Source: Flectonema sp. DT1601
Taxonomy: Eukaryota
Length of the DNA stretch: 64,000 nucleotides
Assembly (NCBI GenBank): GCA_964019425.1
Contig: OZ025782.1
Span: forward strand, 930,001-994,000
Direction: 5' to 3'
Under the pieces are notes generated by a model. It saw nothing but the letters and a program-made list of their open reading frames with translations. It made no database searches and was not told the origin of the DNA. Position numbers and translations under genes: made by a program. Position 1 is the first letter of the stretch; each line of letters starts with the position of its first letter. Below, one piece after another: positions 1-30,371 of this stretch.

Positions 1-1800
1 AATCGGGCCTGTACGGTTATGGCCGTGGAGAAGATGCGCTACTCGGTCCGAGAGGAAATTACCAATCCACCTTACATAAGGGACTGGGATGAGTGTTGTA
101 AGCCTACTCATTAGAATATGGTGATCCACATTATCAAACGCACCCGAGATATCGAAGAAAATCATCGTTGCACATTTCTCATAATTGTTTTTAACTTCAG
201 CTGCAGCTTCGATCATAACGGCTATATTTTCCTCCGCTGACCTACCAGGAACAAACCCAGATTGTTTAGGGTCTAGTTTAGAAATCAGCAGATGTTCTAA
301 TCTAAAATGGACAAGGGATTCAATGAATTTAGCAACTACTGAGGTCAATGAGATAGGACGATAGGAGGCGGCATCAGTCGGGTCCTTTTTGCTACCTTTT
401 AGAATAGGGAGAACATGTGCTACTTTCAAACATTTCGGGAAGGTTCCTCTCTGGAAAGACCAGTTTGCAATACGTAGGAGAACTTCCTTAGCCATATCTC
501 CAAAATGATAAATCATGTTGTTACTTATAGAATCCGGACCGGAGCCGTCAGACTTTTTCAAAGAATTAAAAACTGCTTGGGCCTCTGCCATTGTAAAAGG
601 AGAGCAACTGGGTTCTGAAAAATCCACCTTTGAAGTATGCGGAATAAGCAAGGGACGATTGTCAGAAGAATCAGGGAAAAAGCGACGTTTGAGCGCTCCG
701 ACGTTCACCTGCGGGGTCTCAATAACCGTTGACTCTCCTTTCAGTTCTCGTAATTTCTTATAAGTCCAGCTAAAGCCCTTCTTACAACCGTCGATTAGAA
801 TAAGTTCAGGGTCCAAATGGCGATGTTTGCGTTTAACCCGGAAAGATTCTTTGTGCCACTTATTTGGAAGAGTATCAATCGCAACAGATTCTATTGTTCG
901 AACAAAACTGTCACAGAGTTTATTTAAAGATCGTATCCTTTTAAGTCTAAAACAATGGGAGTCAAGTTGTGCGGAGAAGGAGGACCAATGAGATTCCGTA
1001 AAACTGTTTTTGAACCATATACGATGAGCCGGAATAGCTACCGGTACAGTGAGGGGAGTCACATTAAAATCTGCAACAATTGGGGTATGATCGGAATTAA
1101 CTTGCCCAGCATCAATCTGCAGCGAACGCAGACACTTGAACTGCGGCGAGTGCAATAATAAATCGGGCGTTGTACCATGAGCAGGAATAGAAGGAGCCAG
1201 AGGTTCAATAGCTAATCCATTATTTATAATCCATTCATTTACTATCCTTCCTGAAGAGACGCACCCCTTAGGAATTCGACGCGACCAAGATTCATGATGT
1301 GCATTGAAATCACCTACTGCTAGATCCCCCAAAAACATAGAAGAGGGCAGCTGGCACACCTTCGGTGGGATGTAAATATTAAAAGTTCTAAATATGCCCA
1401 TGGAAGTCGAGAAACTGCAATGGATAACCTCAACAGCGGATGGATGCTTACCTACTTCTAATTGGACCGTACCAAGAGACTTTTTGAAATAAGAAAGAAG
1501 TCCACCGCCTCCCATTTTAGAAGAGTCGCACCTATCACGGCGGAATAATGAATATCCTGTAATACCAAGTTGATCATCGGTTACGTCTGCTTTCAACCAA
1601 GTTTCCTGGAGGTGGATAATATCAGGGTCGTGAGCTTCGATAATAGCATCGAGATGTGAACGCGATGTTTTATAAGCTCTCATATTCCATGAGAGTACCC
1701 TAAGAGGCCCAGGATTAGGGTGGATCCCTGAGCGTAAGAGGTTAATACGGGCTGTTACTGTTTCATGAAATATGTTGTCAGGAATGGGAGCGATTGATTG
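1..1800 (-). CDS. Retrotransposon ORF2 (partial): 2A-like linker, apurinic endonuclease, N-terminal half of reverse transcriptase. Absent from the supplied ORF track, presumably because no stop lies inside the window.
   Basis: Manual translation gives 600 stop-free codons. APE motifs: LRVLSWNM, IIHLQETW, NIYIPP, VGDFNAHH, TPDL, SDH. RT motifs: GPDSI, SYRPISLTSVVAKFIE, QSGFVPGRS, FFDISGAFDNVDH. Confidence 0.95.
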
Positions 1801-1806
1801 CTACTG
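1705..1806 (-). promoter_or_regulatory. Putative translational recoding cassette: CAG-UAG-CAA-UCA readthrough signal (1795-1806) plus 2A-like LLRSGIHPNPG/P (1705-1740)
   Basis: Read directly from the minus strand. The stop context matches UAG-CAR-YYA, and NPGP sits immediately before the first APE strand. Confidence 0.7.
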
Positions 1807-3510
1807 GGCTGACTGGTTGTGCTTCAGTTGAGCCGCCATATCAGCGTGAGAGTTGGCCCGAGGGCGCTGGTCGGTGGAATCTCTACCGCTGCGGCGTTCG
1901 CGATCTTTGTTGGATTTACCCAGTTTATCTCTAAGTTTCTGATTTGCTTCTTTCTCCGCGGCCAGTTCCCTTCGTAATCCATCTATGGTAAGGTTGAGCG
2001 TCTGCAGTTGCTGCATGATCTCAGCATTGGAAGGCTCAGAGGGCTGACTAGGGAGTTGTAAAGGGGTTCCAATCGGCGTGTCAATAGGTGTTTTGTAACA
2101 CTGGCTGTTATTATCCATTGCCACATCCCCATCCGACTTTCCCAAGGCCGGGAAATCTTTCTGCGTTGGAAGTGTTGAAGACACCGCATTCACTGTGATG
2201 AAGAAGTCATCAGCCCACAGGACCGAGCTGGGAGGCGACGTCCGTGCCACTACTATACAATGACTAGACCTCATGTTCGTCTTCGAATTTTTCCTGCTGA
2301 AGTGGGTACAGGTCGAAATTTCCCAACCATGGCTATTACAGATTTGCCATAGTTGGCTCCGAGAAAGGCGGCCCACATGATCACCAGAGATTCTGTATTT
2401 ATCTCCTACCGGTGGAGCAGGACATGCAAGCTCTCCAAGCGATGAACGTGTTTGGTCAGTCATTGATGCCGAACAGATTATTCCTAGTTTGTTTGTACCA
2501 CGTAAGAAAGTCACCGGAGAGTTGAGGGACTTCCCGATGTTTTTCGCCTGCTGAAGATCGTTTGTCTGTAGCATGATGATGCTTAATTTTGCATCTATAC
2601 TGTCCTGGGTAAATTTCGGCAATGTGACAAAATACCCGTCTGGGCCGTTGACTGTGACCTCCAACGACAGCTTGTGAACGCGCGTACACGGAATTCGCAT
2701 GTTCACCGTTCTAATTTTATTAGAGGTTTCCCTCTGTTTTGATGGCCACACCAGGTGACTGTCGATCTCTTCGCCGAACGCACTGAGGTATGCTGCTCGT
2801 GCGCGTGTCATCAGAAAGTCCGGAGTGACTTCCACCTTCTCAGCAAAATAAGATTTATGCGCGTGAAATAACACTACGCAATTTTTAACGTTTCTCTCAG
2901 ACTTCTGTTGGGTTCTGAGAGGGGCTTTCGTGCTGCCGTAGGACGAGATCCAACCAGTACGCGACGACGTTTTTCCGTTGATGATTATTGGAAAAGTCAG
3001 CCGAGTGCTACCTTCCAACTGTTTGTGAGTGATGACTGAAAAGTCACCTTGTTTGCGAGACGCCAGGACTGCGTCTGCTGGGTTACAAATAAAAATACCA
3101 GAGGTATTGCTAATACTTGAGAAGGCTGTCGTAGCAGTGACAACCGGTAAAACCCAGTCTTCTGGTCGTAAAGTGATGTTCTGCCATGAAGGTGGCAGAG
3201 TTTTTAACGGAGGTGTCTTAATCAGCGGGGTCTTAATCTGCTGGGTCGACTTCGTATCAGGCTTCTTCGCCATATTCAGTAAGGCGCCATAGTATCCGTC
3301 CTTCTTACCCGGAGCAATGGCTGTTCTCTTCGCTGAGCTTTCTATTTTTTGCGGACCTCTAACTTTTTGCCACTTGGCTTCTGTTTTTTCCGCCTCTCCC
3401 TTCTTCTTCTTCGTTCTCTTCTTCTCAACACTCAGTTCCTCACTCAGGAATTTCCTGAAGAGGGACAACAATCGGGCCTCATCAAGAGACCCGACCGGCT
3501 GTACTTTCAT
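1801..3510 (-). CDS. Retrotransposon ORF1 (569 aa; basic N-terminus, C-terminal coiled coil)
   Basis: Long ATG-initiated ORF directly upstream of APE-RT. Heptad segment EIMQQLQTLNLTIDGLRRELAAEKEANQKLRDKL. Confidence 0.85.
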   Translation of the reverse strand: MKVQPVGSLDEARLLSLFRKFLSEELSVEKKRTKKKKGEAEKTEAKWQKVRGPQKIESSAKRTAIAPGKKDGYYGALLNMAKKPDTKSTQQIKTPLIKTPPLKTLPPSWQNITLRPEDWVLPVVTATTAFSSISNTSGIFICNPADAVLASRKQGDFSVITHKQLEGSTRLTFPIIINGKTSSRTGWISSYGSTKAPLRTQQKSERNVKNCVVLFHAHKSYFAEKVEVTPDFLMTRARAAYLSAFGEEIDSHLVWPSKQRETSNKIRTVNMRIPCTRVHKLSLEVTVNGPDGYFVTLPKFTQDSIDAKLSIIMLQTNDLQQAKNIGKSLNSPVTFLRGTNKLGIICSASMTDQTRSSLGELACPAPPVGDKYRISGDHVGRLSRSQLWQICNSHGWEISTCTHFSRKNSKTNMRSSHCIVVARTSPPSSVLWADDFFITVNAVSSTLPTQKDFPALGKSDGDVAMDNNSQCYKTPIDTPIGTPLQLPSQPSEPSNAEIMQQLQTLNLTIDGLRRELAAEKEANQKLRDKLGKSNKDRERRSGRDSTDQRPRANSHADMAAQLKHNQSAQ

Positions 3511-4456
3511 TTTAGGGGTTGTGTTGGGAAATCAATAAAAGTTGGGGTTCAAGATACAACAAGGGTCAAAAAAAACACATCGTCCTGCTGCTCTATTTAG
3601 CACTGTGGAGTACGTAGTTTCAGGCTTTAATCTTATCCTGCTTTGTCTCCCTTGTCCCTTACGAATAAGTTCCGGAGGAATTCACTCTTCAGTTAATATT
3701 ATTTATTTTATTAGTTAGAGACTCTTCAAACTTGAGGATCTCTAATTCTGCAGAACTTAATTCCAAGAAGACTATTTTATTAGTTTCCACACTGGGCATT
3801 CCAGATCAACAGATCTGTAACCTCAATGATTCCACCGTCATCGGATTACTAACAGGAAACAAAAACAAAAGTAAAAGATTGACGGAAAGTTTGATACGAT
3901 ACGAAAAGATGACGGGAAGAGGGATTTATTTGCACACCAAAAATAACGACACAATTATGAATTAAAAAAAGCGTAATCGCGGCGGGCAAAGATCATCGAA
4001 ATGTGAGAAAACTCAAACCATGCCAACAGAAAAAGAATCATAACAATATTTGTGAAGTTTTTTTATATACGAGGGGAAACAAAACAAAGAAAAATAAAAA
4101 AAATCAAAGAAATACCAACATAACAGAAGCCAGCTACGAGACAGTACTTCAGTACTACTTCAACAGAAGCACTTCTCAAATAGTTGGTATTAGTCTTAAA
4201 GAAAGTTATCAAATAAATAATAGATATTTAGGCCAGCAAATTCCATCAAATATATGACAGCGGAAACACGGAGGGAACAAAAAAATGGCACGCTGGCCAC
4301 AAGAGCAACAGTTGCTTGCTCGTCAACATGGAGAAGCTATTAACAATAAAAAGAAAACGTTCGTTGTTTGCAAGGATTGCTTCAGTCACAGACGGAAACT
4401 AATTCAAACAGAATAATTAAAAATGAACAACGTGTTGCAAACTACTATCTGCTCAA

Positions 4457-7400
4457 CTATTTCTTAATTAACTTGTCAATAACATCAGTAGCCTTGTCTT
4501 GGATAGCTTTCTTCACATCATCAAGAAAGATCTTTCCGCGGTACGATAGGACCAACCGATCGCCAACCACAGTGATGTCAGCTTTTATCGATGCCTCCAC
4601 TGATCCTCTGCTGAGAGCTGTTGAGAAGTCAATCCTGTTGATGACTATTAAGTTCTTACCAAACTGGATGATCATATTTTTTAAATCATTCAACTTGTCT
4701 CCGATCTTCTTTAAAGTATCAATTGCTTTGTCTAACTCTCTCTTTGCGTCATTTACTAACTTTTTAGCCGAATCTATAAGTTTCTTGGCTTCATTTTCAA
4801 GTTTAGATAAAGTGTTCTTCGCCCCCTCCCAAGCCTTCTTAGCTGTTTTAACGATATTACAACCGAGGGACTTAAAACAGCCGGTGAAGGATTTACACTT
4901 CGGGCACTTAGCATCGTTCTTTTCCTTCTCCTTCTTCTGGAGATCTTTCTTGGCGGAGTCTATCTTCTTATCGGACGCTGCCTTCTTATTCTTGTATTCC
5001 GTTTCCTCGTCATCGTATTTCCTTTGCTTCGAATTCTTGTCCTTTTGAGCCTTCGTGTGTTCGCGTGTGTAAGATGCAGACAAGTCAGAATCGGTTGCTG
5101 ATGCCGAGTCGTCAGCCAGTTGACTGTTGATATCATTACCAAAACTTCCAATAATTACACTTTTATGATTAGAAGATGAAGGTTTGCCTGTAACTTCAAG
5201 TGATGCCACCACAGCAAACTTATTGATGTTGAATGAGAAACTTCCTCTCGTCATCTTCTCACTCAATAACATGTTCATGCTTGCAGAGAATCCCAGGACT
5301 TGGACTTGTCCTGAAACTTCTAAAATCCTATCAGAAGTCGTGAGCTTCAAAAGAAAACTCGGTCCTTTATTTGGGTTACCCGCTGCAGTGATATCTAACG
5401 GACCCCAAGTAACTGGTTGTAACTCAAGGGAGGTTTCCAGACCCCGAGCGTCTAACTTAAACGTTGCTTCTGCTACTGTCAAGGCCCCCATAATTTTCAT
5501 ATTCGTAATGTTAACGATAGTGCCTGGGGGGATGGTTTCAGAAACAGCTCCAATTTGGATGTCAACCTCGTTGATAGGGTCGGGGTTAAAACTTGCGGAC
5601 ATGAAATCAACTGAGCTGTCAGTTAGTACCTCACCAGGTCCTTCGACACACTTTTTGCATCCGCAGACTTCTTCAATCAGGTTGCGAACGTTTAGATTCT
5701 TAACTTCTCCTTTGAAAGCACTTTTTCTGAAATCCGTAATATCAGCTCCAACTACAACAGTTCCAGTAGCAGTACCGACTTGAATTCCCCCGATGAGAGA
5801 AAATCCCGTCAGTGCGATTGGGATAGCTGGGACAGCCGACATTTGGATACCAATGGGAAATAATATTTTTGTTCCCGAGATGCCAAACGGCTCATCCCAA
5901 GGCTTGTTGCTGTCTACCAAAAGATCAACTGTCAACGCTCCAGTTGTATCCATCGAAATAAAACCTCCAGCTTGAAATACCTGAGGATTCGTACCCCCGA
6001 GAGTGAAGTCAAGCTTGACTAGAAATCCAATACTCATAACTGCTGATATCTTAAAGCACAAAGCAACCTCACGAAGAACAACATCTCTTCCAAGAGGAAC
6101 GTTACCCGCTAGCATTACAAAAACGTCAACATCGCTGATGGACAAGATATCAGCGACGACAATGAGACCTCCCGAGTGGGGATCTTTCGAATCGCTGATC
6201 TGCTGCGTCAAGTCTTGTGGTGCAACTGCCATAACGTCTTCAACAGCTTTCGAGTTGAATCCCAAAACTGTTCGAATACTAATGCCGCTGCGGAATGAAA
6301 TCATCCGCCCCGTCCGGATGTCCTTTACTTCGAATCCTTGCTTGCAGATGCTGAAGGAAAGTAAACGCAGTTTCAACGTGTTGATAATAGTCTCAATTAC
6401 TGGAGGTGTTCCAGAACGTGATGAAAGGTCTCTTGCGGTGATCATAAAACCAAATCCCCACTTGTTATTAGAACCAGCACCTGCAGCTATTAGTAACTCA
6501 ACTGGCATACCGAAAAACGAAGCATCAGCAGATATGTAGGCATACTTCTCAGTAAAGTCAACAACGAGAACAACATTACTAAATATAACAGAATTCATTG
6601 CTGAGTTGATGTCAGGATGACCTATCCCAGCTGAGGCGCCTATTGGAGACACAAACTCCTTTGAAATTGAACCTAAGTTGACTACACTTCCCGGGTTGGG
6701 CTGGGCTTCGAGACTGAAATTGCGAAACGGCTGCAGCTGAAATGACATTACAGCGTTAAAACCCAACATCTCTCCGGTTATGCGGACACTTTTCTGATCA
6801 GCGTTGTCATTTACTACCTCAACGTCTAGCGATTTGATCGTCAGTCGCTTGCCAGGCCCAAATGGAATAACGAGGTTTCTTCCGAAACCAACTAAGTTCC
6901 ACGCCTTTTCGTTGCATGCTGGCCTCGAAAAATTAACCCCGACCTCAAAGGGAGGTATGTTTCCAGGTAAATTTCTAACAGTGAGTGTTCCCTGTCCTTC
7001 GCAGCCATCCAGCGCTACGGCAATCGAAACGTAACCAGCTGGATCATTCCAGATAATTACTGCAGAAGCATTCATGTTAGTAGTGTCTAGAAGGTATTGT
7101 TGTGATACACCCTGTTTTTGAAGTTATCGTTTGCAGTTTCCTCTCGTAGCAACAGGCTAGTAAAAAGCAACAGTAATAGAGAAAATACATACCCCGCCAG
7201 CAGGGTGGGCGGTAATCACGCCGGTCCATTTTCTAGTGCTAAGGCTCGCCATGGGATTTCCTCCATGTGAGGAAGAAGTAAGATTAACTTCCAGCCATTG
7301 AAAGATCTTCCTATCTTGTGCAGTCCAAGGGTTCATGTACCTGCCGTACATTTTTACAACACCACTGCAGGAGTTGTGTTCAACCGGCCCTCTAAACGCA

Positions 7401-10400
7401 AAGGCTTCGAGACCTGCGATACGAACTGTAGCACCTCCAGTTCCCGGAGACGGAGTATTGCAGTCGTTGATGTGTTCGAATTGCAAGTCTCCACTAATTA
7501 ATCCATTCAATGTCGTAAAGAAGGTTCCTATTCTTATTTCTTGAAGGGTGCTTCGGATAACCTGTTTGATAATGTTTATGATAAGACACGGAAAAAGGAT
7601 AAAATAAAAGAAAAAGAATTATCGGGATTCTGACAGATCCATCGACCTCCACCCCCCCCCCCCCCCCCCCCCCTAGGGTACAAGCTGTCGATAAAGTACT
7701 TTTTCCGAATTTTGGTAAATATAACCTTCCCGGGGGCAAAAAATACCCAGGACCCCATCAGAACCCCCAAAAATGTGATTTCGGGGCCGAAAAAACCTCG
7801 ATTTGGCTGATTTCGGCAAAGGAATGAAAAATCTCAAAAAGTGTGGACCGTGTGGTACCTGGGGGTCCAATTTTGAGGCCTGTGACATGCACCTTCAAAT
7901 AATTTTTTTTTACAATGAGAAGAGGTGACCTTAGTGTGTCCCTGTGCACGCAGTGTGCTAATATACCATTTCCGTATCAGTTTCCGCTTCAAGAACACGC
8001 CACGAAAAAGAGCAGCGCTCTCGCTCGGCCATGCTTGAGGCCACGAGGCTCACGGGCAGGATAACACAGCGGAAAACGACGTTCTGCAGGGCAGCTCACA
8101 AAGTCATTTTGCGGAGGAGAGCATTGATCCCAGAGTGCATGAAAACACCTCCCGAGGCATCCCTGAAGTCACTCAACAGCACTTGGACAGTCAGAAGCAA
8201 GATACGCGTGAGAAAGGGGTCCAAAAACGTCCAGTATCTGAATCGTGATCACAGAAGGCTCACAGAATAGACAAAGCGCCACGTCAGTACCCCAAACAGG
8301 GATAAGCCTGAAGACAGCTGTAGTGGTAGTGCATCAAATAGCAGTGCCATAGATAGCAACAGCGACATAGGGCAACATGCCCCGTCCAAAAAGCAGTTCA
8401 AGGCATCACTCAAGACCCAACCATACTCACCAGCAGGGCATACAAGACACTCCAGTACATGCGGCATACGAAGAAGTACGGAAGACACATCCGCTTGCAA
8501 CTGTACCCAAACGAGGGGGATATACTCCCGGAGTCTTGGAGTCGTAACTACACTGCAGATATTGCGGCAAGAAGGGATCGGCGCAGAGAGATCTAACTAA
8601 GTCCTGAGTGAGTGACGTAGTTGAAGCTGATTGCAGGAAACGATCCACAGTTTGAAACTCGTCTTTTTACCTCAACCTGTGAGGTTACAGGGGAATTTGT
8701 ATCCTGTAGACTTGTTGCAATTCCTAAGTTTGAGACGTCTCCCGGTGTTGTTATTGTGGATATGTCTCTTCCGGGATTCCCGTATGTGTTTTGTTTTTTT
8801 TGTCTTATTTGCGTGCGATGTGTCTTATCTTTATATGGCCGCACTACGCTAATTGTTAAATATCGCAGGTGCACAGACAGAAGGGAAGCGGGTCGAAGTC
8901 ACCAACTATATCTCGAAGGACAGTCCGACTTGTTGATGGATTGGACAGGTGATCTGTCGGTGACCTGACTTCTTGAAGCAGCAGCTTCCTCCTCACCCTC
9001 CGTCAAATTGCTGCAGCATGATACTTCCTCTGGTACCGTCGTGCTCGTGGGATGAAGCTAACAACCGTGGCGTTCGTTGTCATCCTGCACCCTTCAAGGG
9101 ATGGGGAGGTTATTCAGTGTTGTTGATAGTTCTTGGTCAACTGATGGAACCAGTGGCGTGAATGCTACTCTACTGATAACGTACAACATATTCCAGAGGT
9201 ACACGGACTTCCAAAGGCTACCACATCAACGCAGGACCACCGACCCTCTTCAGATTGGCAAGAACAAGCACAACAGGAGGCGCTACAGGGGCTGAACGTA
9301 CCACCCCGTCCTCACAGGGAAGACCTCTAGACAGCAAGGTCTAATACTAATCTGCCATCTGTATCCAAGGATTGGTCCTCCGTCTATCTTGTACAGAAAG
9401 AAGCACAGCTTCGAGCCGAATTTTAAAAGCTGAGCACATGGGATGCTCAAGAGAAGGCCAGTAGCCTAAACATCGGACATGGGGGAATTAACAAGCCCGG
9501 TCTGGTGGAGCATATTATTAAGGTTCAAATCAGGTCGATAAAAATAAAACTTGGGTTCCCATTTCATTCCCCACTCAACTCAGACGGAAACCCTGGTTAT
9601 GGATTGCTCAATGCACGGAATTACTTGTAATTTTTGTGAGCCCTCCTAACACACCCCTTGTTTTCACCCCCCCTCAGGTACCACACGGTCCACACTTTTT
9701 GAGATTTTTCAAAGACTTGCTCTAAAGTGCCGAAGAACTGTTTCTTTGGATCGCAATCCCCATTTTTGGGGTATATGTTGCAGTTTTCATAATTTGGGTG
9801 CCCAAAAAACTTGTTCTCCGGAAAAAAACCGAAAGTGCCCAAAATCTCCGTAAAATCGATGCTTGTACCCCCCCCTACCCCCCCCCCCCCCCCCTCTCAG
9901 GTTCTTTTAGAAAGTTCACAAGTATCCTTCCAAAACCATTTTGGGTATTTCCAAGCAAAGGTGACAAACATACCGGAATCTCAGCCAGGGCAGAGTTACC
10001 AAACATCATCGCTGATGATGTCAGTTTCCCTTCGAATTGAGTTGGCTCAGCTACTGTTGACATCAACTCTCCAGTGATCGCATCGTTGAATGTAATTCCG
10101 TTATACGGTACCTGAAGTACGGCGTTCGCATTGATTTCATAAAGAGTTTCCGTAGGTCGTGTCAGACAACGAAAGTACTGCAGCTCGCCGACGAATGTGG
10201 TATTCAGTTTACTGAAAGTAACATCTCCCATTGCTTCAAATGCCTTGCACGGTTCATCTTCATTATCAGTACTGACCTCGGCAGTTCCAATAAACTCAAA
10301 CCCTCCCGAGGAAATAGTCATCGGGACGGAAAGTGGAGTCAGCATCTCGTCCTTCGTTATGTTGGCTGACACCGACAGGTCGGCTCCATTCATAAATGAA

Positions 10401-13400
10401 CCTGTTTTGTTGTTTCTCATTAAATTGAATAAATGTCAACAATACGAAGACAGCCAATCCCAAAGTGACAAGAAGACCTCGCGACAAGAACATGACGCAA
10501 CAGTAGTACTCTCTCGAAGAAATAAAAATAACGTCACAATTGACAAACCTTTTCCGCTGAGCTCACCTTCCCACGAAGTGGTGTTTTGAGAAATGCTTCC
10601 ATTAATGTTCACAGTTGCAGTCTGAACCTCAACTCCGTAAACAGTTAGTGAAGCAGAGCTACCAGCGACTGTCCACAGAGGCAAGTGAGTGTTTTGTTTA
10701 GTGTAAGTAGCCACGTGGGTGATAGTCGAAGCAATGCCTCTTAGTTGAGAATTCTTTAAAGAAATCACAAGGTCACCAGTTCCAGATAAAGTCTTACTAG
10801 TGTTGTCAAAAGACAGATCCATCGTACCCGACACAGGTCCGATTGTTGCAGACCCACTGAGATCAAGTGAAGCTACAGTCATCTCGAGGTTATCAAACAG
10901 AACGTTAGCAACAATATTACTGCTCTCTCCAATTGAAACCCTTCCCTCCACGCTTCCTGACCAATTGGTTTCAAACTTTCCAGAATTAGGATTCTTTTCA
11001 ATAACCGAAGAAATACTCACATTCGCATCTGAAACCTTTACATCCCACAACATTGCCTTGCTGCCGGACACCGCAACCTCCCAAAGCGGGTCGCCATTTA
11101 CCCCGCAAGTGGTTTTCTGTTTTATGATTCCTTGTCCTTCGAATCCAGAGGTAGTGGATTTGTAATCCACAATTCCGTTGTTGGCACCGCTGCAGCTGTC
11201 GTCGTCCATTTGAATGAGAGTACTGAACTCGTATTGAGGTGTTACAATATCACACGATACGCTGGTATTCTGAACTTCCCAGTTCGTTCCAATTAAAAGC
11301 TCCGCTTCACAGCCCGTTTCGAACATCGTTGTCTCGGCTTTTACCATTCCCCGCCAATCACTTCCGTTCGAAATTAGCTCCACTTCGATGCTCGTGATGT
11401 CGAGGTTTTTAACGTCAAGCGGTGTTGGGGTGCTTGCGAGGAATGTCATGGCTGTGGATGTTTGTTTGTTTGTTTGTTTGTTTGTTTTTATTCCCAAGGA
11501 CAGTTCCTTGTGTTATCCAAGCGAGTATCAGTTAACCGAAATTCACCAAAGTAACACAGCAGAAGGCATCCCTCACAACACAGCAGCGGTAGAAAGACCA
11601 TCTTGAAAAGATTACTTGTTTGTTAGTTTCAAAAAAGAAGAATAAAAGAACAAACCTGAACTACAAAGATTAATATTCCACTCACTTACAATATACGATA
11701 CGAGATCCCCTGGCTTAGCAAAGAACGCAGCGACCTGATCAGTTAATTGATCGTGTCCGAGCATCTTGTAAGGACAATTATCACCAAATCCTTCTTCCTT
11801 CATGTAGGTGATCAGAGACACCAGTCCTGTTTCCGTGAAGGAAATATCTGGAATCGGAAAGTCAAATTGTGTTCCACCAGCCAAGAATGAAATAACTGTC
11901 GACTCACTCACAGTTACAACAGATGGCAGTGATGGTACCATTGCCTTCGCTACACCAACCGAATTGTTGTTAAGATGTTCGAACTCAAGTGAAAGCAAAG
12001 CACTCTCCTTCAGAGATGGAAATCTAACCGGAAGTTGCATGTTTGCAATTCCAATCTCTTTGAGCGAACTCAGCAGAGGAGCAGTGTTGAATACCAAGCT
12101 AGACCGTTCATCGATAATCATTATTGGATTACTTTCGTCATTGCTCGTCTCAAATCCAAAACTCAAAGTGATGTTCGAGTTCCTAATCGGGAACGTCAAG
12201 TCCGAAGTTTCAGCCGCAGAGAACGCGATGTTGGTGTTGTAATCAACCGCCGTTAGCTTACCTTCGAGTTTCATATTAGGAACCATAATATACATCTGAG
12301 GCCTTCCAGCAGTTCTAGATTTCAGTAAAGGAGATATCGCCATTCCGACCTTCACGCTGATCCCTAAACGAGCTCCGAATTCCCCGTCGATATCTGGCAT
12401 GATGTCGGAGACTACAGACATGAGTCGATTCTTCATAAGATCCTCAAGACCAGTTCCATCTAGAGCTCTATTCAAGACTGGTTCGGAGACCTTTTCAATA
12501 TTTCCAAGCAGATCGATATCAAACGCCAGCCATAAATCCAATGTCAGATATCTGTCTCCCTTTATCGTTTTCACCGCACCAATAAAATTAGTTCCCCCAC
12601 CGGATGTATATTCAAAAATGTTTTTAAGAAAACTCAGAAAACCTCCAACTGTAGGACTTGAACCAAATATCACATTGAGCTCGCGTTCGTATCGAAGATC
12701 AACGCGGAGGATGTTGCCGACCTCCGGAAGGTAATCCCGCCAGTCGAAAATGGAGCCGGTGCTTGGGTTTGTAAGATTCGACTGGAAACCTCCAAACAAA
12801 GCCGGGTAACTATTATTCAACTCCACTAGCATTTCATATTGAAACCGTGGATTAACTCCATAAGTTGGAGGAACTGTTGCAAGGAACTTACCCAGAGCCA
12901 TTAAAGTTGCATTCTCTGCTGTAGTTTTAATCCCAAGGCTGGTAAACAACTCCGGTAGGTAGTCCTCCGGAGAGAATTCAATACCGTTTGATTTATTGCG
13001 AGGGATTTCAAAATCTTTGTCAAATTGAGAAGAGATGTTTTTAGGAAGCAAGTCGATCATTGCCAGAGCGTTCTTTCTGCTCAACTTATAATTACTTTTC
13101 AATGATAGCATCCAAGAGAGATGTTCGATTCCGTACTCCGACCCACTAGCAGCTCCTGGAATCTCAAAGATGAATTCGAGGATCTCACCAATGTAGTTTA
13201 TCGGTTCGAACTTCTCACCACTCGACGTGTCAACACCTGAATCTGAAAATCGTCCAAAAATCGCCGGATGGGTTCCCTGAAGCTTGGCTAGAGTATCTCT
13301 TTGGAACAACACCGACTTTGAGATTTCCTGACGGCTTCGATACTCGTCTAACTTTAACTCGTAAGGAAGTCCAATACCCAGCTGTCGGTACGACTCATGC

Positions 13401-16400
13401 ATTGCTAGATACCTGTCTAATACCTCATCAAAGTCCATCGTGCCGTTGATTCCTGTGGTAGTTTCCCTTTCTTCGTCATTTGCATTTCCAAACGCAGAAA
13501 CAGAACAGACACTTGATAAGAAACATAACAACACACCTGATAAGAAGTACTCCAAGTTATCGCTGTACACGGAACCTGGAAAAGGTTTGTGAGCTGAAAC
13601 TTCTTCAACCAGCTGATTGAGTGAGCTGGTCACGAAGCTGAGATGGTTAATCGATGTCCCTTTTTCTTGGACTCTGAGGAAGGAGAGATCCAGATCGACA
13701 GTCATTTCAGCTGTTTTGCCGTTGAGGATGTCGAGATCGTGAATGGCAACAATCGGAATGAATCTCTCAGAGTCCGTGTGGAGTGGAAGAACTACATCCA
13801 GCTTGCCATACGGTTGTGGTTTCATTCTCTGTGTTTTGATTTATTTTTGTTTTCTCAAAAATAATTCATTCCTTTTATTGTAATCAAGTCAGCCTTTAAG
13901 AAAATAAAATAAAACTATCGCCATACCGAGTAGATCAAACTCATCAAGTCAGTCGAGTCGTCAACAACTGAAGCTGTTGCAGTAGCAAATGCTTTGCTCT
14001 TGACTCCAAATACAAGAGAAATTATGCCGTCAGCCACACTTAGGAGACCGTCCCCGATGACCATGTCAACGGGATCAACAAGTATTTGCACCTCAGCGCG
14101 GTATTTTTTTACAGTGATGCTGTTTTTTTTTTTTTTTGTACCAAGAAACAATTCAGATTGAAGCCAGTGTTACTTCAAAGAAGTGACGGGGGGAGGCTGG
14201 ATGGCAGGAGATGGAAGATGCGCCTACTGATGGCGCACTTTGTGGCGCCATCAGTACAACCTTTTCTACGATGACGGGGCTGAGTCCGGGCGATTTGCTG
14301 CTGGATGCTTTTACCGAAAGGTGGTGGCTGTTCTGAGACGAGAGGGGAAGGACCTATTGTGACAATCGAAACACTGCATTACTGCCGGAGGTAGTGGGTC
14401 CGGAATCGATACGCCAGCTCTCCAGATACTCGTCGTTTGATGCGGCGAGGTACCTTCCGATCGGGAAGACACAAATAGCGCAGCAGTCAGCTGAAACATA
14501 ATGGAAGCTGGGAATCGAATTGTAGTGTCGTTTTGTCCCGCGTTTCCTGCTCAGCGAATGGCTCTGCCGAACTGCATATGAAGTACAAACTGCCGGTTCT
14601 CCGCCACCTCCACCAAGGGCGAGGAGTTTCAGGAGGGGTCCGGCGCACCTGACGTGATGCTGACGGAAGTGGCGACTGTTGGAGCTGTTGGAAGCCGTCA
14701 CATCCTGACAGGAGGCAGGTGCGACAGGATTTTGTCTGCGTTCGACAAAAATATAAGGAAGGCTAATCTGAATGGTTTTTATTGACTCCTTCTGTAAAAG
14801 TAGTCGGGCATCACATGTAATCTTTTCATAGCTCACAGTCCAACCGCGGATTACAGTTTCCTTCACAAACAACAACACTATATTCTCACAGAGACTCAAC
14901 TATGAATTTATAAAAGCTTCAAGAGTCAGTTTTATCTTTCCCTCGGCAGTTCAATCTCTCAGATCATCCTTTATCAAGAGCTTTCCTACTTTAGAACTTA
15001 AAAAAAACACAAGTTGAAAAACAAACCTAACTTCCTTCGATTTCGTAATACTGATCTCGATTTCAACGGTTGCCGCAGCTTCATAATAAATATTGAAGTC
15101 AGGAATCGTAACATCACTCGCAGGTGGAGCATTTCTGTCAAGAAGCTCCCAAAGTTCTCGCAGTTCACTGATAGGTAAAAAGAGTTCCTTAAGTGCCGCC
15201 TGCATTGAGTAAACAGGAACTAAAGATAAGGCAGAAAGTTGAATGTTTATCGACACTTTGTCATCAACTGTTTCATGACTACATTGAAAGGTGTTCACAC
15301 GAACAGAAGTTTCAGAGTGGGGAGCTGGAACATTGTGAGACATAACATTTACAAGCCCATCGAGAGTTGTCAAGTGGCTGTCGTCTGTGTCGTATAACTC
15401 AAAGTAGTTCGCAACAGACGATCTAATGTCCAACAACGCACCAACCCCGTGAACCATATGTGACGGTTCTGGCATTCCTGTCAGATCTAACTTATTGAGA
15501 TTCGACTCGTTCATGTTTACATCTATTCCTTTTATCTGTTTTTGTGTGTTAAATTGAGGAAAATATGCAAAATCGAAAGATAAATAAATAAATTATTTGA
15601 AGAATAAATAACAAACCTTATCGAGAGCCTGTAAAAGAGGTTCAATCATCCAGTGGATATCGTTTTCATCATTAGAAGGCTTCATCACTTTTGGAATAAA
15701 TGGATCGATAGCCTTTCGAAGAACAGAAAGTTTGACGACAACGAACTCACCTCCCTGAGTAACTGCGTAAATAAAATCATCTTCTACGACGAACCCGTGA
15801 GTACCATCGAGTTCTGGGATGCGTTTTAATTTCTTAGGTGTGTCGCTGTTCTCTTCGTACGACACAACCCAAACCTGACCTCTGGAAGCAGAAATTGTGA
15901 TCTGTCCATAAACTGCAATGTGCGTGTTGAAAACAACGTTCTCCGATTCCAACGTTTGGGCAGAACGTTGCTCTAATTGAGTTGCTGCAGCAATCTCCCG
16001 ACCTTTTTCATCTACTTCGACCTCAACAGGGTTTTGGTCATCAGAGACGTTAATGATGTAAATACCTCCCTCCTTATCATTCAAGTAAGCTCTTTGATTA
16101 CTAACATCGATACTCGCAATTAATGTGAATATTTCAATTTTAGAAACCACCAAAGGGTTAATGTGATCATCAACTCTCACGATAGCCATCTTATCCCGAA
16201 GTATAACATAAGCTAAGTCTTCATGGATTTTAATGTTCGTAGGATGCTCATCATGAAGTATAACAGAAAGGTACTTCGGATTCTTGGGATCCTTGACATT
16301 TAAAAGATGAAGACCAGAAGACTCATCAAGGATAAATATGACATCTTGTTGTTTTCCAGATGTTGGTCGATAAACTAAAAACTCACTTGAGGGATTGGAA

Positions 16401-17137
16401 GAGTTTCGGGAAGTGACCTTAAACTGACTTAAGTACTTTGGAAGGGGACTTGAAACATCGTAAATAAGAATATTTCCCGTCTGCGCATCAGCTATTGCCA
16501 ACGTTTTCTTATGAACGCAGAGTGAACGCGCAACTTTAAAGTTTTCATTCGGTTGTAAAAGCGCTACTTCTACCGGACTTGGGGGACTGGTAATGTCTAA
16601 GGCCCGAACACCAGCAGTTTCATCAGCTAAGTAAGCGATGTTACCAGAGATGGCTAATCTTTTTGTTAATCCAACAGGGACCCTTCCAGTAACAGCCGCG
16701 CTGTGGTAGTCGATGACAACACTTTCTTTGCCATCTGACTCCTGGTCATCAGTTGTGGAGACGAGGAAGTAGATTGCGACTGCTGCGATTATCATTGTGA
16801 TGATGCAAACAGCTGCGAGGATCTTCTTCCTTGTCGCTGATGTTTGTTCTTGCTTAGCGATTTCATCAAATGCAACAATTGATTCGCTGTCGCTACCAAC
16901 ATCAATCAATTTCGTCATGTCTAACGCTTCTGGTGAAGACAACAAACCCAGCGGTGGTGGTGTTGATAAACTCATCCTACCGGACGCACTCGCCCCTCCA
17001 CTTGGCACTACGCTTGGTGGTTTTGAAGCTAACGGATCGACTGCTTCCAGAGGTTCATAGGCAGCCAACGGATTACCAGCCTCCTCATAATCTTCAATAT
17101 TCATTTCCTTATTAAATTCAACATATTTTCTCAACAT
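4457..17137 (-). CDS. Giant (~2,916 aa) type II membrane protein, copy 1. Eight exons: 15617-17137, 15027-15535, 13927-14119, 11656-13828, 10549-11451, 9974-10401, 7193-7561, 4457-7111. N-terminal TM helix, LVIVD-like repeat propeller, long beta-rich body, C-terminal Cys-containing coiled coil.
   Basis: Seven GT-AG introns join the ORF-track fragments with consistent phases, and the exon sum is 8751 nt = 2917 codons. TM segment ILAAVCIITMIIAAVAIYFLV. Repeats such as AYLADETAGVRALDITSP and GIYIINVSDDQNP. Confidence 0.85.
7676..9870. mobile_element. Non-autonomous TIR DNA transposon (~2.2 kb) inside intron 6 of the giant gene
   Basis: Termini GGGTACAAGC (7676-7685) and GCTTGTACCC (9861-9870). 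Perfect 37-bp subterminal inverted repeat at 7825-7861 / 9675-9711. CCCCCTA flanks both sides. Absent from copy 2. No intact transposase ORF. Confidence 0.85.
11460..11487 (+). repeat. (GTTT)~7 microsatellite near the 3' end of intron 4, copy 1
   Basis: Direct inspection. Confidence 0.9.
14123..14747 (-). mobile_element. Poly(A)-tailed, GC-richer insertion in intron 2 of copy 1; probably a 5'-truncated degenerate retroposon
   Basis: Absent from copy 2. Ends on the minus strand in A15 (T-run 14123-14137). A stop-interrupted frame contains CFDCHNRSF (CxxC). Confidence 0.55.
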
Positions 17138-18533
17138 TGTTTATTGTTTTCCAGAATAGCTGCCTTTAACCTGTTCACAGAAGAAGATAATATAATTTTC
17201 AGAATCGATTTAGCAACGCAGTTTTTTAAGGAAAGGTGAGGACAAAAAAAAGGGAGATGTGGATTTTGTACTTACTTAGGAGGGTATGGATTAAATTAAG
17301 GAATCATACAGTAACCCTCTGTGGAACTGATGGACTACTACATGAATACCAACCACCCGATGAAGGTGATGTTTTGAACGTTATTTTATTGAATTTAAAA
17401 CGAATTCGTTGGTAAATAGAAAAGGATTTTCTTTATCATGGAAACCCTGTTCGAATTTTAAATTAATAACACACAAGACGTTGATCTTAAAGTTCCAAAA
17501 CGTCTCGTAAAAAGTGGATTTCGCACCCGGAAAGAAGAAATTTGATGAAAAAATACAAAAAAAGGAACGGGAAAAGAAAGAACAAATTTGTTTTTAATTA
17601 TTTTTACTACGGTTGATGACGATTCATGGTCAGCAAAATTCTCAAAGACACCAGAGTATTCCATTTTCAAGAACAACTTAAAGCTTCAGAAATCGGAAGC
17701 ATTAAGTTGATTCAAGCGCAAGAAGACGTTATCACTTCTTATTTACGGAAAATTGGGCTAAAAAAGATGGCAAACTTCTCTCTCCATTAGTTTGACAGAA
17801 ATACTTTTGGTGTTGTTTTTGAATACACGTGTGTCAGGTTTCGTAATCAAAGTCGGAAGGAAAAAGAATCTTTTTGAAGGGGCAGGACCAACCGCTAAAG
17901 GTGGTTAAAAAAGAGTTGAAAGCAGAGCTGACCTTCGCCGAACACCAGACAAGGACACCAAGGTGAACACTGACAATCTCGTGAGCCACACTAAGGTAAG
18001 AATTGCTCTCTAAACGTAAGCCGTTAAACAAAGCTTAACAAGAGTACGTAATCCCTTTGTCAGATGCAAAAAGTAAACAAAACAAACAAACAAACAAATA
18101 ACAGAAACTAAATTCCTACGCAAGGCTGTACTTCGGGTGTCTTAATTGCAAGCAAGAAATAAAAATAATTTTCTTTTTTACCAACAACAATTCCTTCATA
18201 TCGCAAACAAGCTTCAGCAATGTATCCACATCGACTTCGAAGTAAGCTTGTTGAGGACAAGGTCATCTGTGGGCGCAAGGAACTACCAGACATGACAAAC
18301 CAACGCAAGTGTATTGTGGCTTCAAGTAGCTGCATATGGTCTCCGTCAACTCAAAGCTGAGGCAATCATTGCTATAAAGTAGTGACACAGCCAGAGTTAA
18401 CGCAATTCGACCAACATCTCCAGAGTAGCATACTTGTGCTCCATCCATCAAGTAACAAGGATATAATGGGTAGATAAGAATCTACTTTTATTTTCCTTCG
18501 TCATAAAATGATGAAAACTAAAATTATAAATGT

Positions 18534-18583: not shown

Positions 18584-20474
18584 TCAAAATAGAAAAAAAA
18601 TCTGAATAAGAGAGCCAAAAATAGAAATGATTAAAAGAAAGAACAAGTGCTGACTTTCCGGTGGTCAATCCGATATTTCGGACTCAGTAGAGACATTTGT
18701 GTACGAACCACTTAAAATAGAAAGTCAACAGTTGTCTAACACGAAATAATAAACGAATTGCAGTTCAATTCTTCAGCACATGTTTCTAAACTGAGCTGAC
18801 ACACACGCAGTCCTCAAACTGAACATGTGTGAGAAGGATAGCTTCCAGAATGCTGTTTGCATTTTCATTATTACATAGTTCTTACTTAACCACATAAGTG
18901 ATTACTTTTCTTAATTGTGACGGGGGAAGGGGGAAGGTATGGAGTTCTTTGTTTTTGATTGATGGAAAGGTGAGAAACTCACCTCCATTTCACAACAGTT
19001 ATCGAATGGTTCAAGCTTCTTGCTTCACCAGGAACTTCTACTTCATAAGTAAATGAAGCGATTTGAATGTAATAAAGGGAAGAGACGAATTGCAATAATG
19101 TTACTATTATGAAAGTTAAAAAATAAACTCAAAAAAAAATAAGTTTATTTGTTTTCCTTCTTTTTCTGACGTACGCACTATTCTGTGGAGCTAGTAGCCA
19201 ATACTGAGGTATTAGCAGGAGTTTTCACAAAAGCAAATATTCAAATCAACAAATAAATCGGACAAATAATGATTTGGTTTCAGACATGAATCTCTGTGTG
19301 GAGTTAGGGTGTTAGTTTTAAAAAAATGGTGAGCCGTTTAGCCACAGTTAGTATCATTAATTTTAGTTAGCTATTTTAGCAGTGAATTATCACATGTAAA
19401 AAAAATAAACACATCAACTAACCGTTTAGCTATATTGTTGGTATTAACAATTATCACCCAATCAAAATAATCAAATGTAAAAATTAGCCGAACAACAAAC
19501 AAATAATGGGTTGGGGATAATGGTTTCGGGCTAAAATTAAAAAGGTTTTCCTCGGACCATTAGTAGCTATATTAGCAGTGAGTTATCACAAGAAAAAAAG
19601 AAGAAGAAAACACATCGTCCTGCTGCTCTATTTAGCACTGTGGAGTACGTAATTTCAGGCTTTAATCTTATCCTGCTTTGTCTCCCTTGTCCCTTACGAA
19701 TAAGTTCCGGAGGAATTCACTCTTCAGTTAATATTATTTATTTTATTAGTTAGAGACTCTTCAAACTTGAGGGTCTCTAATTCTGCAGAACTTAATTCCA
19801 AGAAGACTATTTTATTAGTTTCCACACTGGGCATTCCAGATCAACAGATCTGTAACCTCAATGATTCCACCGTCATCGGATTACTAACAGGAAACAAAAA
19901 CAAAAGTAAAAGATTGACGGAAAGTTTGATACGATACGAAAAGATGACGGGAAGAGGGATTTATTTGCACACCAAAAATAACGACACAATTATGAATTAA
20001 AAAAAATCGTAATCGAGGGCAAAGATCATTCGAAATGTGCCAACAGAAAAAGAATCATAATAATACCTGCGACGTTTTTTTAGACGAGAGGAAACAGAAT
20101 TAAAAAAATATTAAAAAAATCAAAGAAATACCAACATAACAGAAGCCAGCTACGAGACAGTACTTCAGTACTACTTCAACAGAAGCACTTCTCAAATAGT
20201 TGGTATTAGTCTTAAAGAAAGTTATCAAATAAATAATAGATATTTAGGCCAGCAAATTCCATCAAATATATGACAGCGGAAACACGGAGGGAACAAAAAA
20301 ATGGCACGCTGGACGTTGAAGAGCAGCAGTTGCTTGCTCGTCAACATGGAGAAGCTATTAACAATAAAAAGAATACGTTCGTTGTTTGCAAGGATTGCTT
20401 CAGTCACAGACGGAAACTAATTCAAACAGAATAATTAAAAATGAACAACGTGTTGCAAACTACTATTTGCTCAA

Positions 20475-29400: not shown

Positions 29401-30371
29401 ATGTGATCATCAACTCTCACGATAGCCATCTTATCCCGAAGTATAACATAAGCTAAGTCTTCATGGATTTTAATGTTCGTAGGATGCTCATCATGAAGTA
29501 TAACAGAAAGGTACTTCGGATTCTTGGGATCCTTGACATTTAAAAGATGAAGACCAGAAGACTCATCAAGGATAAATATGACATCTTGTTGTTTTCCAGA
29601 TGTTGGTCGATAAACTAAAAACTCACTTGAGGGATTGGAAGAGTTTCGGGAAGTGACCTTAAACTGACTTATGTACTTTGGAAGGGGACTTGAAACATCG
29701 TAAATAAGAATATTTCCCGTCTGCGCATCAGCTATTGCCAACGTTTTCTTATGAACGCAGAGTGAACGCGCAACTTTAAAGTTTTCATTCGGTTGTAAAA
29801 GCGCTACTTCTACCGGACTTGGGGGACTGGTAATGTCTAAGGCCCGAACACCAGCAGTTTCATCAGCTAAGTAAGCGATGTTACCAGAGATGGCTAATCT
29901 TTTTGTTAATCCAACAGGGACCCTTCCAGTAACAGCCGCGCTGTGGTAGTCGATGACAACATTTTCTTTGCCATCTGACTCCTGGTCATCAGTTGTGGAG
30001 ACGAGGAAGTAGATTGCGACTGCTGCGATTATCATTGTGATGATGCAAACAGCTGCGAGGATCTTCTTCCTTGTCGCTGATGTTTGTTCTTGCTTAGCGA
30101 TTTCATCAAATGCAACAATTGATTCGCTGTCGCTACCAACATCAATCAATTTCGTCATGTCTAACGCTTCTGGTGAAGACAACAAACCCAGCGGTGGTGA
30201 TGTTGAGAAACTCACCCTACCCGACGAACTCGACCCTCCACTTGGCACTACGCTCGGTGGTTGTGTTGGAGCTAACGGATCGACTGCTTCCAGAGGTTCA
30301 TAGGCAGCCAACGGATTACCCGAATCCTCATAATCTTCAATATTATTAAATTCAACAAAGTTTCCCAACAT
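20475..30371 (-). CDS. Giant (~2,914 aa) type II membrane protein, copy 2. Exons: 28857-30371, 28267-28775, 27727-27919, 25453-27628, 24265-25167, 23690-24117, 23208-23576, 20475-23126.
   Basis: Same splice sites as copy 1. Exon sum is 8745 nt = 2915 codons, and all coding indels between the copies are multiples of 3. Confidence 0.85.
25176..25283 (+). repeat. (GTTT)~27 microsatellite near the 3' end of intron 4, copy 2
   Basis: Direct inspection; expanded relative to copy 1. Confidence 0.9.

What the first reader, a model, noticed from the sequence alone, without database searches (positions are those of the whole stretch)
1681..1810. LINE with stacked recoding signals: leaky UAG readthrough followed by a 2A-like StopGo peptide between ORF1 and ORF2
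Seen: ORF1 ends ...CAG UAG and the same frame continues CAA UCA AUC... for 600 stop-free codons, reading QSIAPIPDNIFHETVTARINLLRSGIHPNPG|PLRVLSWNM... The first AUG of ORF2 (1683) lies inside the first conserved APE motif, so AUG initiation would truncate the endonuclease. Established: UAG-CAR-YYA is the tobacco mosaic virus-type readthrough signal, and 2A-like NPGP peptides precede the APE domain in L1Tc/ingi-related and other APE-type non-LTR elements. Inference: readthrough sets a low ORF2:ORF1 ratio and the 2A then frees APE-RT from ORF1, giving three products from one AUG (ORF1, ORF1+31 aa, Pro-APE-RT). I do not know of this combination having been described.
Basis: partly seen in the sequence, partly recalled or inferred. 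Interest (0 to 1): 0.92.

Follow-up and report, generated by a model that had tools for sequence, protein, structure and literature searches.

The report
Jumping gene with stacked ribosome recoding
A young, multi-copy retrotransposon in what is likely a marine protist has no usable start codon for its enzyme gene; ribosomes likely reach it by leaking through a virus-style stop signal, and a conserved 'skip' peptide 31 codons later is predicted to free the enzyme, a pairing not found in the papers searched.

Summary
A LINE has ORF1 (569 aa, RRM-like fold), then CAG UAG CAA UCA, then in the same frame a 2A-like GIHPNPG|P directly before an APE-RT-RNaseH ORF2. The first AUG of ORF2 lies inside the first endonuclease motif. 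The stop is not private: every full-length ORF1 call of the family (4 sequences, 7 contigs) ends at the same residue, and no fused form was found. The host uses UAG as a stop. The 2A segment is 20/21 identical in a sister family that is 61% identical overall, so it is very likely translated. UAG-CARYYA is the tobacco-mosaic-virus readthrough consensus (about 1 in 400 by chance). Best reading (0.55): leaky readthrough followed by StopGo. Main rival (0.25): termination-reinitiation at an AUC three codons after the stop, where the sister family has a Met. DNA of other copies could not be obtained, so conservation of the UAG and hexamer is untested, and no activity was measured. Each part is known separately; the pairing in a LINE was not found in ten literature searches. 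New variant of a known kind.

The parts
3511..3571 (-). Probable 5' end and about 58-nt 5' UTR of the element, inserted in a T-rich tract (boundary 3567-3571)
   Evidence: A 97%-identical duplicate of the flanking host block (3569-7667 vs 19604-23682) lacks the element and diverges here. The target-site duplication cannot be seen because the 3' end is outside the window.
1804..3510 (-). ORF1, 569 aa: RRM-like domain(s) and a C-terminal predicted coiled coil
   Evidence: No Pfam hit. AlphaFold2 model, mean pLDDT 60.5; residues 367-455 match RRMs (best Z 8.3, rmsd 2.8, 78 aligned, near the background level for this search), with a weaker similar fold at 207-303; long helix 495-543. Relatives at 27-41% identity.
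1795..1806 (-). CAG UAG CAA UCA: ORF1 stop with a type I (TMV-like) readthrough hexamer
   Evidence: Sequence; consensus UAG-CAR-YYA from PMC3542737; stop position shared by 4 of 4 full-length ORF1 sequences on 7 contigs. Readthrough itself is inferred.
1771..1794 (-). Near-cognate in-frame codons AUC (+3), AUU (+6), AUA (+10): candidate reinitiation sites of the rival model
   Evidence: AUC aligns without gaps to the first Met of sister-family ORF2 calls.
1705..1767 (-). 2A-like StopGo peptide (21 residues ending GIHPNPG|P); predicted skip between 1708 and 1707
   Evidence: 20 of 21 residues identical in the sister family against 61% overall; activity inferred.
1..1707 (-). 5' part of ORF2: APE endonuclease then reverse transcriptase (RNase H lies beyond the window edge); predicted product of 1,343 aa starting with Pro
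   Evidence: Pfam PF03372 profile positions 1-225 from frame residue 36, PF00078 from residue 471; full-length copy P0001 has RNase H; residue 34 aligns to residue 2 of exonuclease III.
1681..1683 (-). First in-frame AUG of ORF2, inside APE motif I (after SWN)
   Evidence: A protein started here matches PF03372 only from profile position 18.

Best explanation
This is an intact, recently copied LINE (RRM-type ORF1; APE-RT-RNaseH ORF2) whose ORF2 is likely made by leaky readthrough of UAG-CAA-UCA, after which a conserved 2A-like peptide is predicted to release a Pro-started enzyme free of ORF1. Most ribosomes would stop at the UAG and give ORF1p (569 aa). A few percent would insert a residue and translate 31 more codons, about the length a 2A needs in the exit tunnel. 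They would skip the Gly-Pro bond and continue, giving a 601-aa extended ORF1p and a 1,343-aa enzyme whose N-terminus falls one residue before the natural start of the exonuclease-III fold. Shown: anatomy, shared stop, standard host use of UAG, conserved 2A, lack of a usable AUG. Inferred: readthrough, skipping, product ratio. The 2A is probably the older feature (Diplonema relatives and most hits carry it); it would make any N-terminal extension harmless and so let the route into ORF2 drift between AUG start and readthrough.
For: (1) Exact type I consensus UAG-CAR-YYA (PMC3542737) at the one in-frame ORF1/ORF2 stop; background 1 in 412. (2) Stop shared: 4 of 4 full-length ORF1 sequences (7 contigs) end at the same residue, including a copy with 4 amino-acid differences; the other 2 of 6 members are partial or chimeric. 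(3) 4 full-length ORF2 calls (7 contigs; the other 11 of 15 members are shorter) all start at the internal Met; no fused form among proteins of 1,051-3,000 aa. (4) The segment between stop and AUG is under selection: residues 12-40 are 28/29 identical to the sister family against 60.8% overall, and only one other 21-residue window (in RT) reaches 20/21. (5) An AUG start would lose the first APE strand. (6) A third family (54% identical) also has gene calls starting inside the endonuclease, in 5 of the 15 members listed of 18, so lack of a usable start is not unique to this family. (7) G at p12 with H at p14 is a documented over-represented StopGo variant, and the natural H-p14 example tested gave about 90% activity (PMC12846837 section 9); E14H is the one tolerated substitution in P2A (bioRxiv 2026.09.24.754024). 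(8) 16 long host ORFs (9,226 codons) hold no TAG, and 2 of them end in it.
Against: No DNA of other copies or families could be read, so the identity of the stop and the hexamer rest on one copy. The sister family's ORF2 calls (4 sequences) start at a Met aligned to the AUC three codons after this stop, which is the geometry of termination-reinitiation. That route is reported for LINEs and is AUG-independent in human L1. A 1-in-400 motif will occur by chance somewhere in a scan of many elements. The upstream codon is CAG, not the A-ending one of TMV. Pattern scans found no second example: 10 of 11 loci were out of frame (one duplicates another) and the in-frame one lies antisense to a bacterial ORF. 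This exact peptide is untested; only 7.4% of retroelement 2A candidates were highly active in one screen, and most tested in another lowered protein output. In Tca2, an in-frame gag-stop-pol junction alone did not direct readthrough in yeast reporters (abstract).
Confidence: 0.55

Rival explanations
1. Termination-reinitiation plus StopGo. Ribosomes stop at UAG and restart at the near-cognate AUC three codons on (or AUU/AUA at +6/+10). The 2A then trims the 29-residue leader. The CARYYA match is chance or secondary.
For: Sister-family Met aligns without gaps to this AUC, and in P0002 the second Met must be a true ATG. Three near-cognate codons lie in the first ten codons. Reinitiation is reported for SART1 and proposed for L1, where it is AUG-independent.
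Against: It does not explain the same frame or the exact hexamer (1 in 412). Start contexts are weak (U at -3 for the AUC). Two of three families would have had to lose the AUG.
Confidence: 0.25
2. Readthrough occurs, but the 2A-like peptide skips poorly or mainly causes drop-off, so ORF2 is made as a 1,944-aa ORF1-ORF2 fusion or is damped further.
For: The core has H instead of E, so it fails the strict motif. Most retrotransposon 2A-like peptides tested were mid-activity or of the 'reduction' class.
Against: Near-perfect conservation of the whole 21-residue peptide; H-p14 variants are active in other sequences; the break point falls at the domain start.
Confidence: 0.1
3. ORF2 is not reached from the ORF1 message. 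Either a separate RNA is made (spliced-leader trans-splicing, cis-splicing into the CAG/UAG acceptor, or an internal promoter), or this family recently lost its ORF2 AUG and is copied in trans by a sister family.
For: Euglenozoa trans-splice, and Diplonema has GT-AG introns. CAG-UAG offers two AG dinucleotides. Tca2 has a minor junction promoter. The sister family keeps a start codon.
Against: The 30 nt before the stop have 47% pyrimidines and 10% T, with no acceptor-like tract. A leader joined there would meet two out-of-frame AUGs and then the truncating one. ORF2 is open over its full length in 7 copies, and the most diverged copy (11 differences) is also called from the internal Met.
Confidence: 0.08
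4. Artefact: a private nonsense mutation or sequencing error in a single long ORF, or a host that reads UAG as an amino acid.
For: A single ORF1-2A-ORF2 frame without a stop exists in other animals' elements (two cases in Cordylochernes).
Against: The stop position is shared by 7 contigs, and relatives at 27-41% identity end ORF1 at a comparable place. Host ORFs of up to 2,137 codons hold no TAG, and frames close 3-15 codons after TAG-ended ORFs.
Confidence: 0.02

Closest known systems
L1Tc / Ingi elements of trypanosomes (Heras 2006 as cited; Odon 2013, PMC3708506)
   Same: APE-RT-RNaseH ORF with a 2A-like peptide directly before the APE domain; euglenozoan host group.
   Different: Ingi-clade elements are reported to have no ORF1; this one has a 569-aa ORF1 in frame, a stop, and no AUG ahead of the 2A.
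CR1-26_BF, CR1-53_BF, CR1-1_LG (ORF1 plus a 2A in ORF2) and the Cordylochernes ORF1-2A-ORF2 fusions
   Same: ORF1 and a 2A-like peptide in one element.
   Different: No readthrough stop is described in the passages read; different clades; the Cordylochernes cases are single annotated proteins.
Tobamovirus-type (type I) readthrough; Providence virus UAG-CAA-CUA
   Same: Same stop and hexamer consensus ahead of a polymerase.
   Different: RNA viruses; the product stays fused. That Providence virus also has 2A-like sites elsewhere in its genome is recalled, not checked.
LTR retroelements with an in-frame stop: MuLV gag-pol, SIRE1 pol-env, Tca2
   Same: A retroelement sets its protein ratio by bypassing a single in-frame stop.
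   Different: LTR elements, with fusions cut by a protease (recalled); no StopGo. MuLV uses a pseudoknot.
Cardiovirus StopGo followed by -1 frameshift
   Same: Two recoding events in close succession.
   Different: Reverse order, frameshift rather than readthrough, and a virus.
SART1 (UAAUG stop-start) and human L1 ORF2 translation
   Same: Bicistronic LINE message with low ORF2 output.
   Different: Reinitiation rather than readthrough; no 2A. This is the main rival mechanism here.

Membership tests
APE-type non-LTR retrotransposon (LINE) | ORF2 with APE endonuclease then reverse transcriptase | tested here: met
   PF03372 and PF00078 above curated cut-offs; RNase H in full-length P0001.
APE-type non-LTR retrotransposon (LINE) | Upstream nucleic-acid-binding ORF1 | tested here: met
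   RRM-like fold at 367-455 (Z 8.3, nearly all top rows RRMs) in a moderate-confidence model; no Pfam hit.
APE-type non-LTR retrotransposon (LINE) | Dispersed copies and insertion into an empty site | tested here: met
   7 contigs with full-length ORFs; duplicate host block lacks the element.
APE-type non-LTR retrotransposon (LINE) | 3' poly(A)/repeat tail and target-site duplication | not testable with these tools
   The 3' end lies beyond the window edge and no genome is held.
Ingi/L1Tc clade | APE-RT-RNaseH with 2A before APE | tested here: met
Ingi/L1Tc clade | Single ORF, no ORF1 | tested here: not met
   569-aa ORF1 present and conserved in relatives. Not filed as Ingi.
Ingi/L1Tc clade | Pr77 hallmark / HDV-like ribozyme at the 5' end | tested here: inconclusive
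   No Rfam match at E up to 1 in 1-4400; no direct comparison with Pr77 was made.
Ingi/L1Tc clade | RT groups with Ingi/L1Tc references | not tested
   No named Ingi reference among the hits; the quick tree of 60 of 120 hits groups the three families with two Diplonema RTs (SH-aLRT 98).
Type I (TMV-like) stop-codon readthrough | UAG followed by CAR-YYA, with the downstream ORF in frame | tested here: met
   UAG CAA UCA, frame open for 600 codons.
Type I (TMV-like) stop-codon readthrough | Hexamer conserved among copies and relatives | not testable with these tools
   Only protein calls of other copies were available.
Type I (TMV-like) stop-codon readthrough | Measured readthrough product | not testable with these tools
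   Needs reporter, profiling or proteomics.
2A / StopGo peptide | Strict core (D/G/C/N)(V/I)ExNPGP | tested here: not met
   GIHPNPGP has H for E. It matches the rarer H-p14 variant that PMC12846837 reports as over-represented and active, so it is called 2A-like.
2A / StopGo peptide | Conserved upstream tract of about 20-30 residues, Leu-rich ending in SG | tested here: met
   LLRSG tract; 20/21 identity with the sister family; LLLLSG-like class in PMC12846837.
2A / StopGo peptide | Co-translational separation at G|P | not testable with these tools
   Needs a dual-reporter assay.

The most novel reading that the evidence does not exclude
A diplonemid LINE lineage uses programmed UAG-CARYYA readthrough to dose ORF2 and an immediately following StopGo to detach it: a two-step recoding cassette that yields three proteins from one AUG without a protease or a second initiation, and the first readthrough-expressed ORF2 in a non-LTR element. 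The Gln that ends ORF1 in 3 of 4 distant families hints that the cassette is lineage-wide.
Probability: 0.55. Interest if true: 0.85.

Novelty: new variant of a known kind. Interest (0 to 1): 0.72.

Why it matters
How LINEs translate ORF2 from a two-gene message is still described as an open question (PMC3894237, PMC11485995). This element would add a third solution, beside stop-start overlap and AUG-independent reinitiation, encoded in about 100 nt that can be dropped into a reporter. It would give the 2A peptides of LINEs a concrete job: freeing the enzyme from whatever precedes it. Sister families with and without a start codon at the same spot allow a natural comparison. A compact 'low-dose but unfused' cassette would also be a useful expression tool, and it would be evidence for CARYYA-type readthrough in Euglenozoa.

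Tried and rejected
No genome is held for the window. No sequencing run was listed, which is no evidence on expression. The search for related loci in metagenomes gave 87 pattern matches and no confirmed relative. So no junction DNA from other copies was obtained. ORF1 word-index searches found only the family's own cluster and a fragment; the full HMMER search found 6 proteins. Combined-pattern scans (UAG-CARYYA, gap, 2A core; UAG only; gap 51-81 nt in all three collections, also 21-50 and 82-112 in viral contigs) gave 6 metagenome, 3 viral and 2 prokaryote-genome loci; none is a second example. The window match beating 100 of 100 shuffles is not counted as evidence, because the pattern was drawn from this site. 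A stem starting 26 nt after the stop and enclosing the 2A codons folds at z = -2.06, but 3 of 49 windows along the element reach z of -2 or lower, and the sister family's residues would break part of it; not accepted as a stimulator. A reassigned UAG was rejected (caveat: those ORFs were picked stop-to-stop, so the argument rests on their length). Rfam: nothing. Atlas search of ORF1: leads under 0.9 only; Foldseek: no match at E of 0.001 or better. The careful RT tree did not finish; the quick tree is quoted. Three look-ups of earlier scan findings returned nothing. Alisch 2006 and Havecker and Voytas 2003 are not held and are cited second-hand.
Full report
OBSERVATION. The feature is on the minus strand and is as described. 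ORF1 runs from ATG 3510 to 1804 (569 aa) and ends CAG TAG (1803-1801). The same frame continues CAA TCA ATC and stays open for 600 codons to the window edge. The octapeptide GIHPNPGP lies at 1728-1705 and the first in-frame ATG at 1683. CARYYA occurs at 1 in 412 positions of the window and after 2 of 1,205 TAG triplets, one being this site; as an in-frame codon pair it occurs 4 times in 1,168, again including this site. NPGP occurs once in the six frames of the window.

WHAT THE ELEMENT IS. The downstream frame matches Pfam APE and RT models, and the database's full-length version (P0001, 1,335 aa from the internal Met) adds RNase H. ORF1 has no Pfam hit. An AlphaFold2 model (mean pLDDT 60.5) gives RRM matches for residues 367-455 (best Z 8.3, rmsd 2.8, 78 aligned) and a long C-terminal helix. 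That Z is near background for this search, but nearly all top rows are RRMs. A 97%-identical duplicate of the upstream host block lacks the element and diverges at 3567-3571, which places the 5' end about 58 nt before the ORF1 AUG in a T-rich tract. In a quick RT tree of 60 of the 120 listed hits, this family and two sister families group with two Diplonema RTs (SH-aLRT 98). The closest ORF1 relative is from a Flectonema neradi transcriptome (39% identity). The host is therefore probably a diplonemid (inference).

IS THE STOP REAL? Yes. Of 6 members of the ORF1 cluster, 4 are full length (7 contigs, presumably including the window's own) and all 4 end at the same residue; 2 are partial or chimeric. 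Of 15 members of the ORF2 cluster, 4 are full length (7 contigs) and all start at the internal Met; 11 are shorter. Three contig lengths are shared between the two lists. The most diverged copy has 4 and 11 amino-acid differences and the same ends. No fused protein appeared among lengths 1,051-3,000 (weak evidence by the tool's own note). Sixteen long host ORFs total 9,226 codons without TAG, while the rarest sense codon occurs 25 times; two end in TAG and their frames close 3 and 15 codons later. These are protein calls: they show a stop at this position, not which stop or what follows it. No DNA of other copies could be had.

IS THE LINKER TRANSLATED? Very likely. Against sister-family member P0135 (60.8% identical over the 600 residues), residues 12-40 are 28/29 identical and the 2A part is 20/21; only one other 21-residue window, in the RT, reaches 20. 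After the predicted break, residue 34 aligns with residue 2 of exonuclease III and of another AP lyase, so the released protein would begin where the fold begins. An AUG-1683 product matches the Pfam APE model only from position 18 and lacks the motif-I Asn (its active-site role is recalled from L1 and APE1). A 2A-like site before APE is common in this group: 80 of 120 listed hits have NPGP in their first 400 residues, 19 with D..H and 3 with G..H cores, and a Diplonema ambulator element has three such motifs. The strict core needs Glu where this has His. PMC12846837 (section 9) finds H at that position over-represented also with G at p12 and measures about 90% activity for the rare variants tested; a mutational scan found E14H the only tolerated change there in P2A. 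Against this, only 43 of 580 retroelement candidates were highly active in one screen, and most retrotransposon peptides tested in another reduced protein output.

HOW DO RIBOSOMES ENTER? This is the open step. UAG-CAR-YYA is the type I readthrough consensus (PMC3542737), and it sits at the only stop between two in-frame ORFs where no usable AUG exists. A third family (54% identical) has calls starting inside the endonuclease, at about frame residue 80, in 5 of the 15 members listed of 18; this suggests a stop and no start upstream there too, though gene callers do not always pick the first start. ORF1 ends in Gln in 3 of 4 families that are 27-53% identical, a soft hint of constraint next to the stop. 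But the second family's four full-length ORF2 calls begin at a Met that aligns without gaps to the AUC three codons after our stop. The caller also writes Met for TTG, yet the second Met of P0002 must be ATG. That fits termination-reinitiation, reported for SART1 and proposed, AUG-independently, for L1. It also fits a conserved six-base signal between stop and Met. Because the 2A removes the leader, both routes give the same enzyme. I weigh readthrough higher because reinitiation explains neither the frame nor the exact hexamer, but I allow for chance in a large scan and for the single copy seen. Splicing into the CAG/UAG is unlikely: the 30 nt upstream are 10% T and the next two AUGs are out of frame. 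A stem 26 nt after the stop is not exceptional. Pattern scans of viral, metagenome and prokaryote collections gave 11 loci and no second example.

MECHANISM (0.55). One AUG gives ORF1p (569 aa) from most ribosomes. A minority would read through UAG, pass 31 codons, skip the Gly-Pro bond and yield a 601-aa ORF1 form plus a 1,343-aa Pro-started APE-RT-RNaseH; failure to skip would give a 1,944-aa fusion (sizes). Anatomy, shared stop, host code and peptide conservation are shown; readthrough, skipping and ratios are inferred. Rivals: reinitiation plus StopGo 0.25; readthrough with weak skipping 0.10; separate RNA or trans-mobilisation 0.08; artefact 0.02.

COMPARISON AND NOVELTY. 2A before APE is established for Ingi/L1Tc and five other clades, mostly in elements without ORF1; three CR1 elements have both, and two ORF1-2A-ORF2 proteins are noted in a pseudoscorpion. 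Stop bypass is known in LTR elements (MuLV, SIRE1, Tca2), and StopGo next to a frameshift in cardioviruses. The element works like Ingi at the 2A-APE boundary but is not filed as Ingi, since it has an ORF1. Ten full-text searches showed no report of readthrough plus 2A in a LINE; three of them returned no paper at all. The library lacks most subscription papers and Repbase notes, and I read no supplements: the Odon 2013 and PNAS datasets were not opened and the two bioRxiv supplements are closed, and any of them could list such an element or this peptide's activity.

WHAT I READ. Section plus passages: PMC12846837, bioRxiv 2026.06.17.732966, bioRxiv 2026.09.24.754024. Two of three parts: PMC3894237. 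Abstract plus passages: PMC3708506. Passages only: PMC12338488, PMC5972666, PMC5009743, PMC3542737, PMC2829016, PMC10161547, PMC12278014, PMC11485995. Abstract only: PMC2194720. Not seen: Alisch 2006, Kojima 2005, Heras 2006, Havecker and Voytas 2003 (second-hand).

VERDICT. A real, family-wide junction with two recognisable recoding signals in a sensible order. It is a new variant of known kinds and is directly testable with six reporter constructs. Interest 0.72.

Noticed in passing
window 3420-3580 (minus): Strong predicted RNA fold over the element's 5' end and ORF1 start (z -4.74, 0 of 200 shuffles), with two tight hairpins just after the ORF1 AUG; no Rfam match. Could be a translation or packaging signal.
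   Followed up: partly
P0162, P0167, P0169, P0171 C-termini: ORF1 ends in Gln in 3 of 4 families with otherwise poorly alignable tails; the fourth ends in Lys.
   Followed up: partly
P0167 (named Flectonema neradi transcript, suffix .p2): The suffix usually marks a second ORF on one assembled transcript (naming convention recalled), which would mean ORF1 and a longer ORF share one RNA in a relative. The partner ORF was not retrieved.
   Followed up: no
P0005 residues 1-125: A Diplonema ambulator LINE protein carries three 2A-like motifs around a partly duplicated endonuclease start.
   Followed up: no
window 3569-17254 vs 19604-30490: Recent segmental duplication (four blocks, 97-99.8% identical) of a group of large genes; the LINE sits at the edge of one copy only.
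   Followed up: partly
window 1684-1774 (minus): A predicted long stem pairs the regions holding the three AUGs after the stop (1766, 1690, 1683); z about -2, not exceptional.
   Followed up: yes
window 4457-7123 and 20475-23138 (minus): Duplicated 888-codon host ORF with a long beta-rich region and a C-terminal coiled coil; no Pfam family above cut-off.
   Followed up: no
L006 1496-1595: A metagenome contig encodes what looks like a class B 2A peptide (WIKDLTEEGIEPNPGP) in a long ORF; unrelated to this finding.
   Followed up: no
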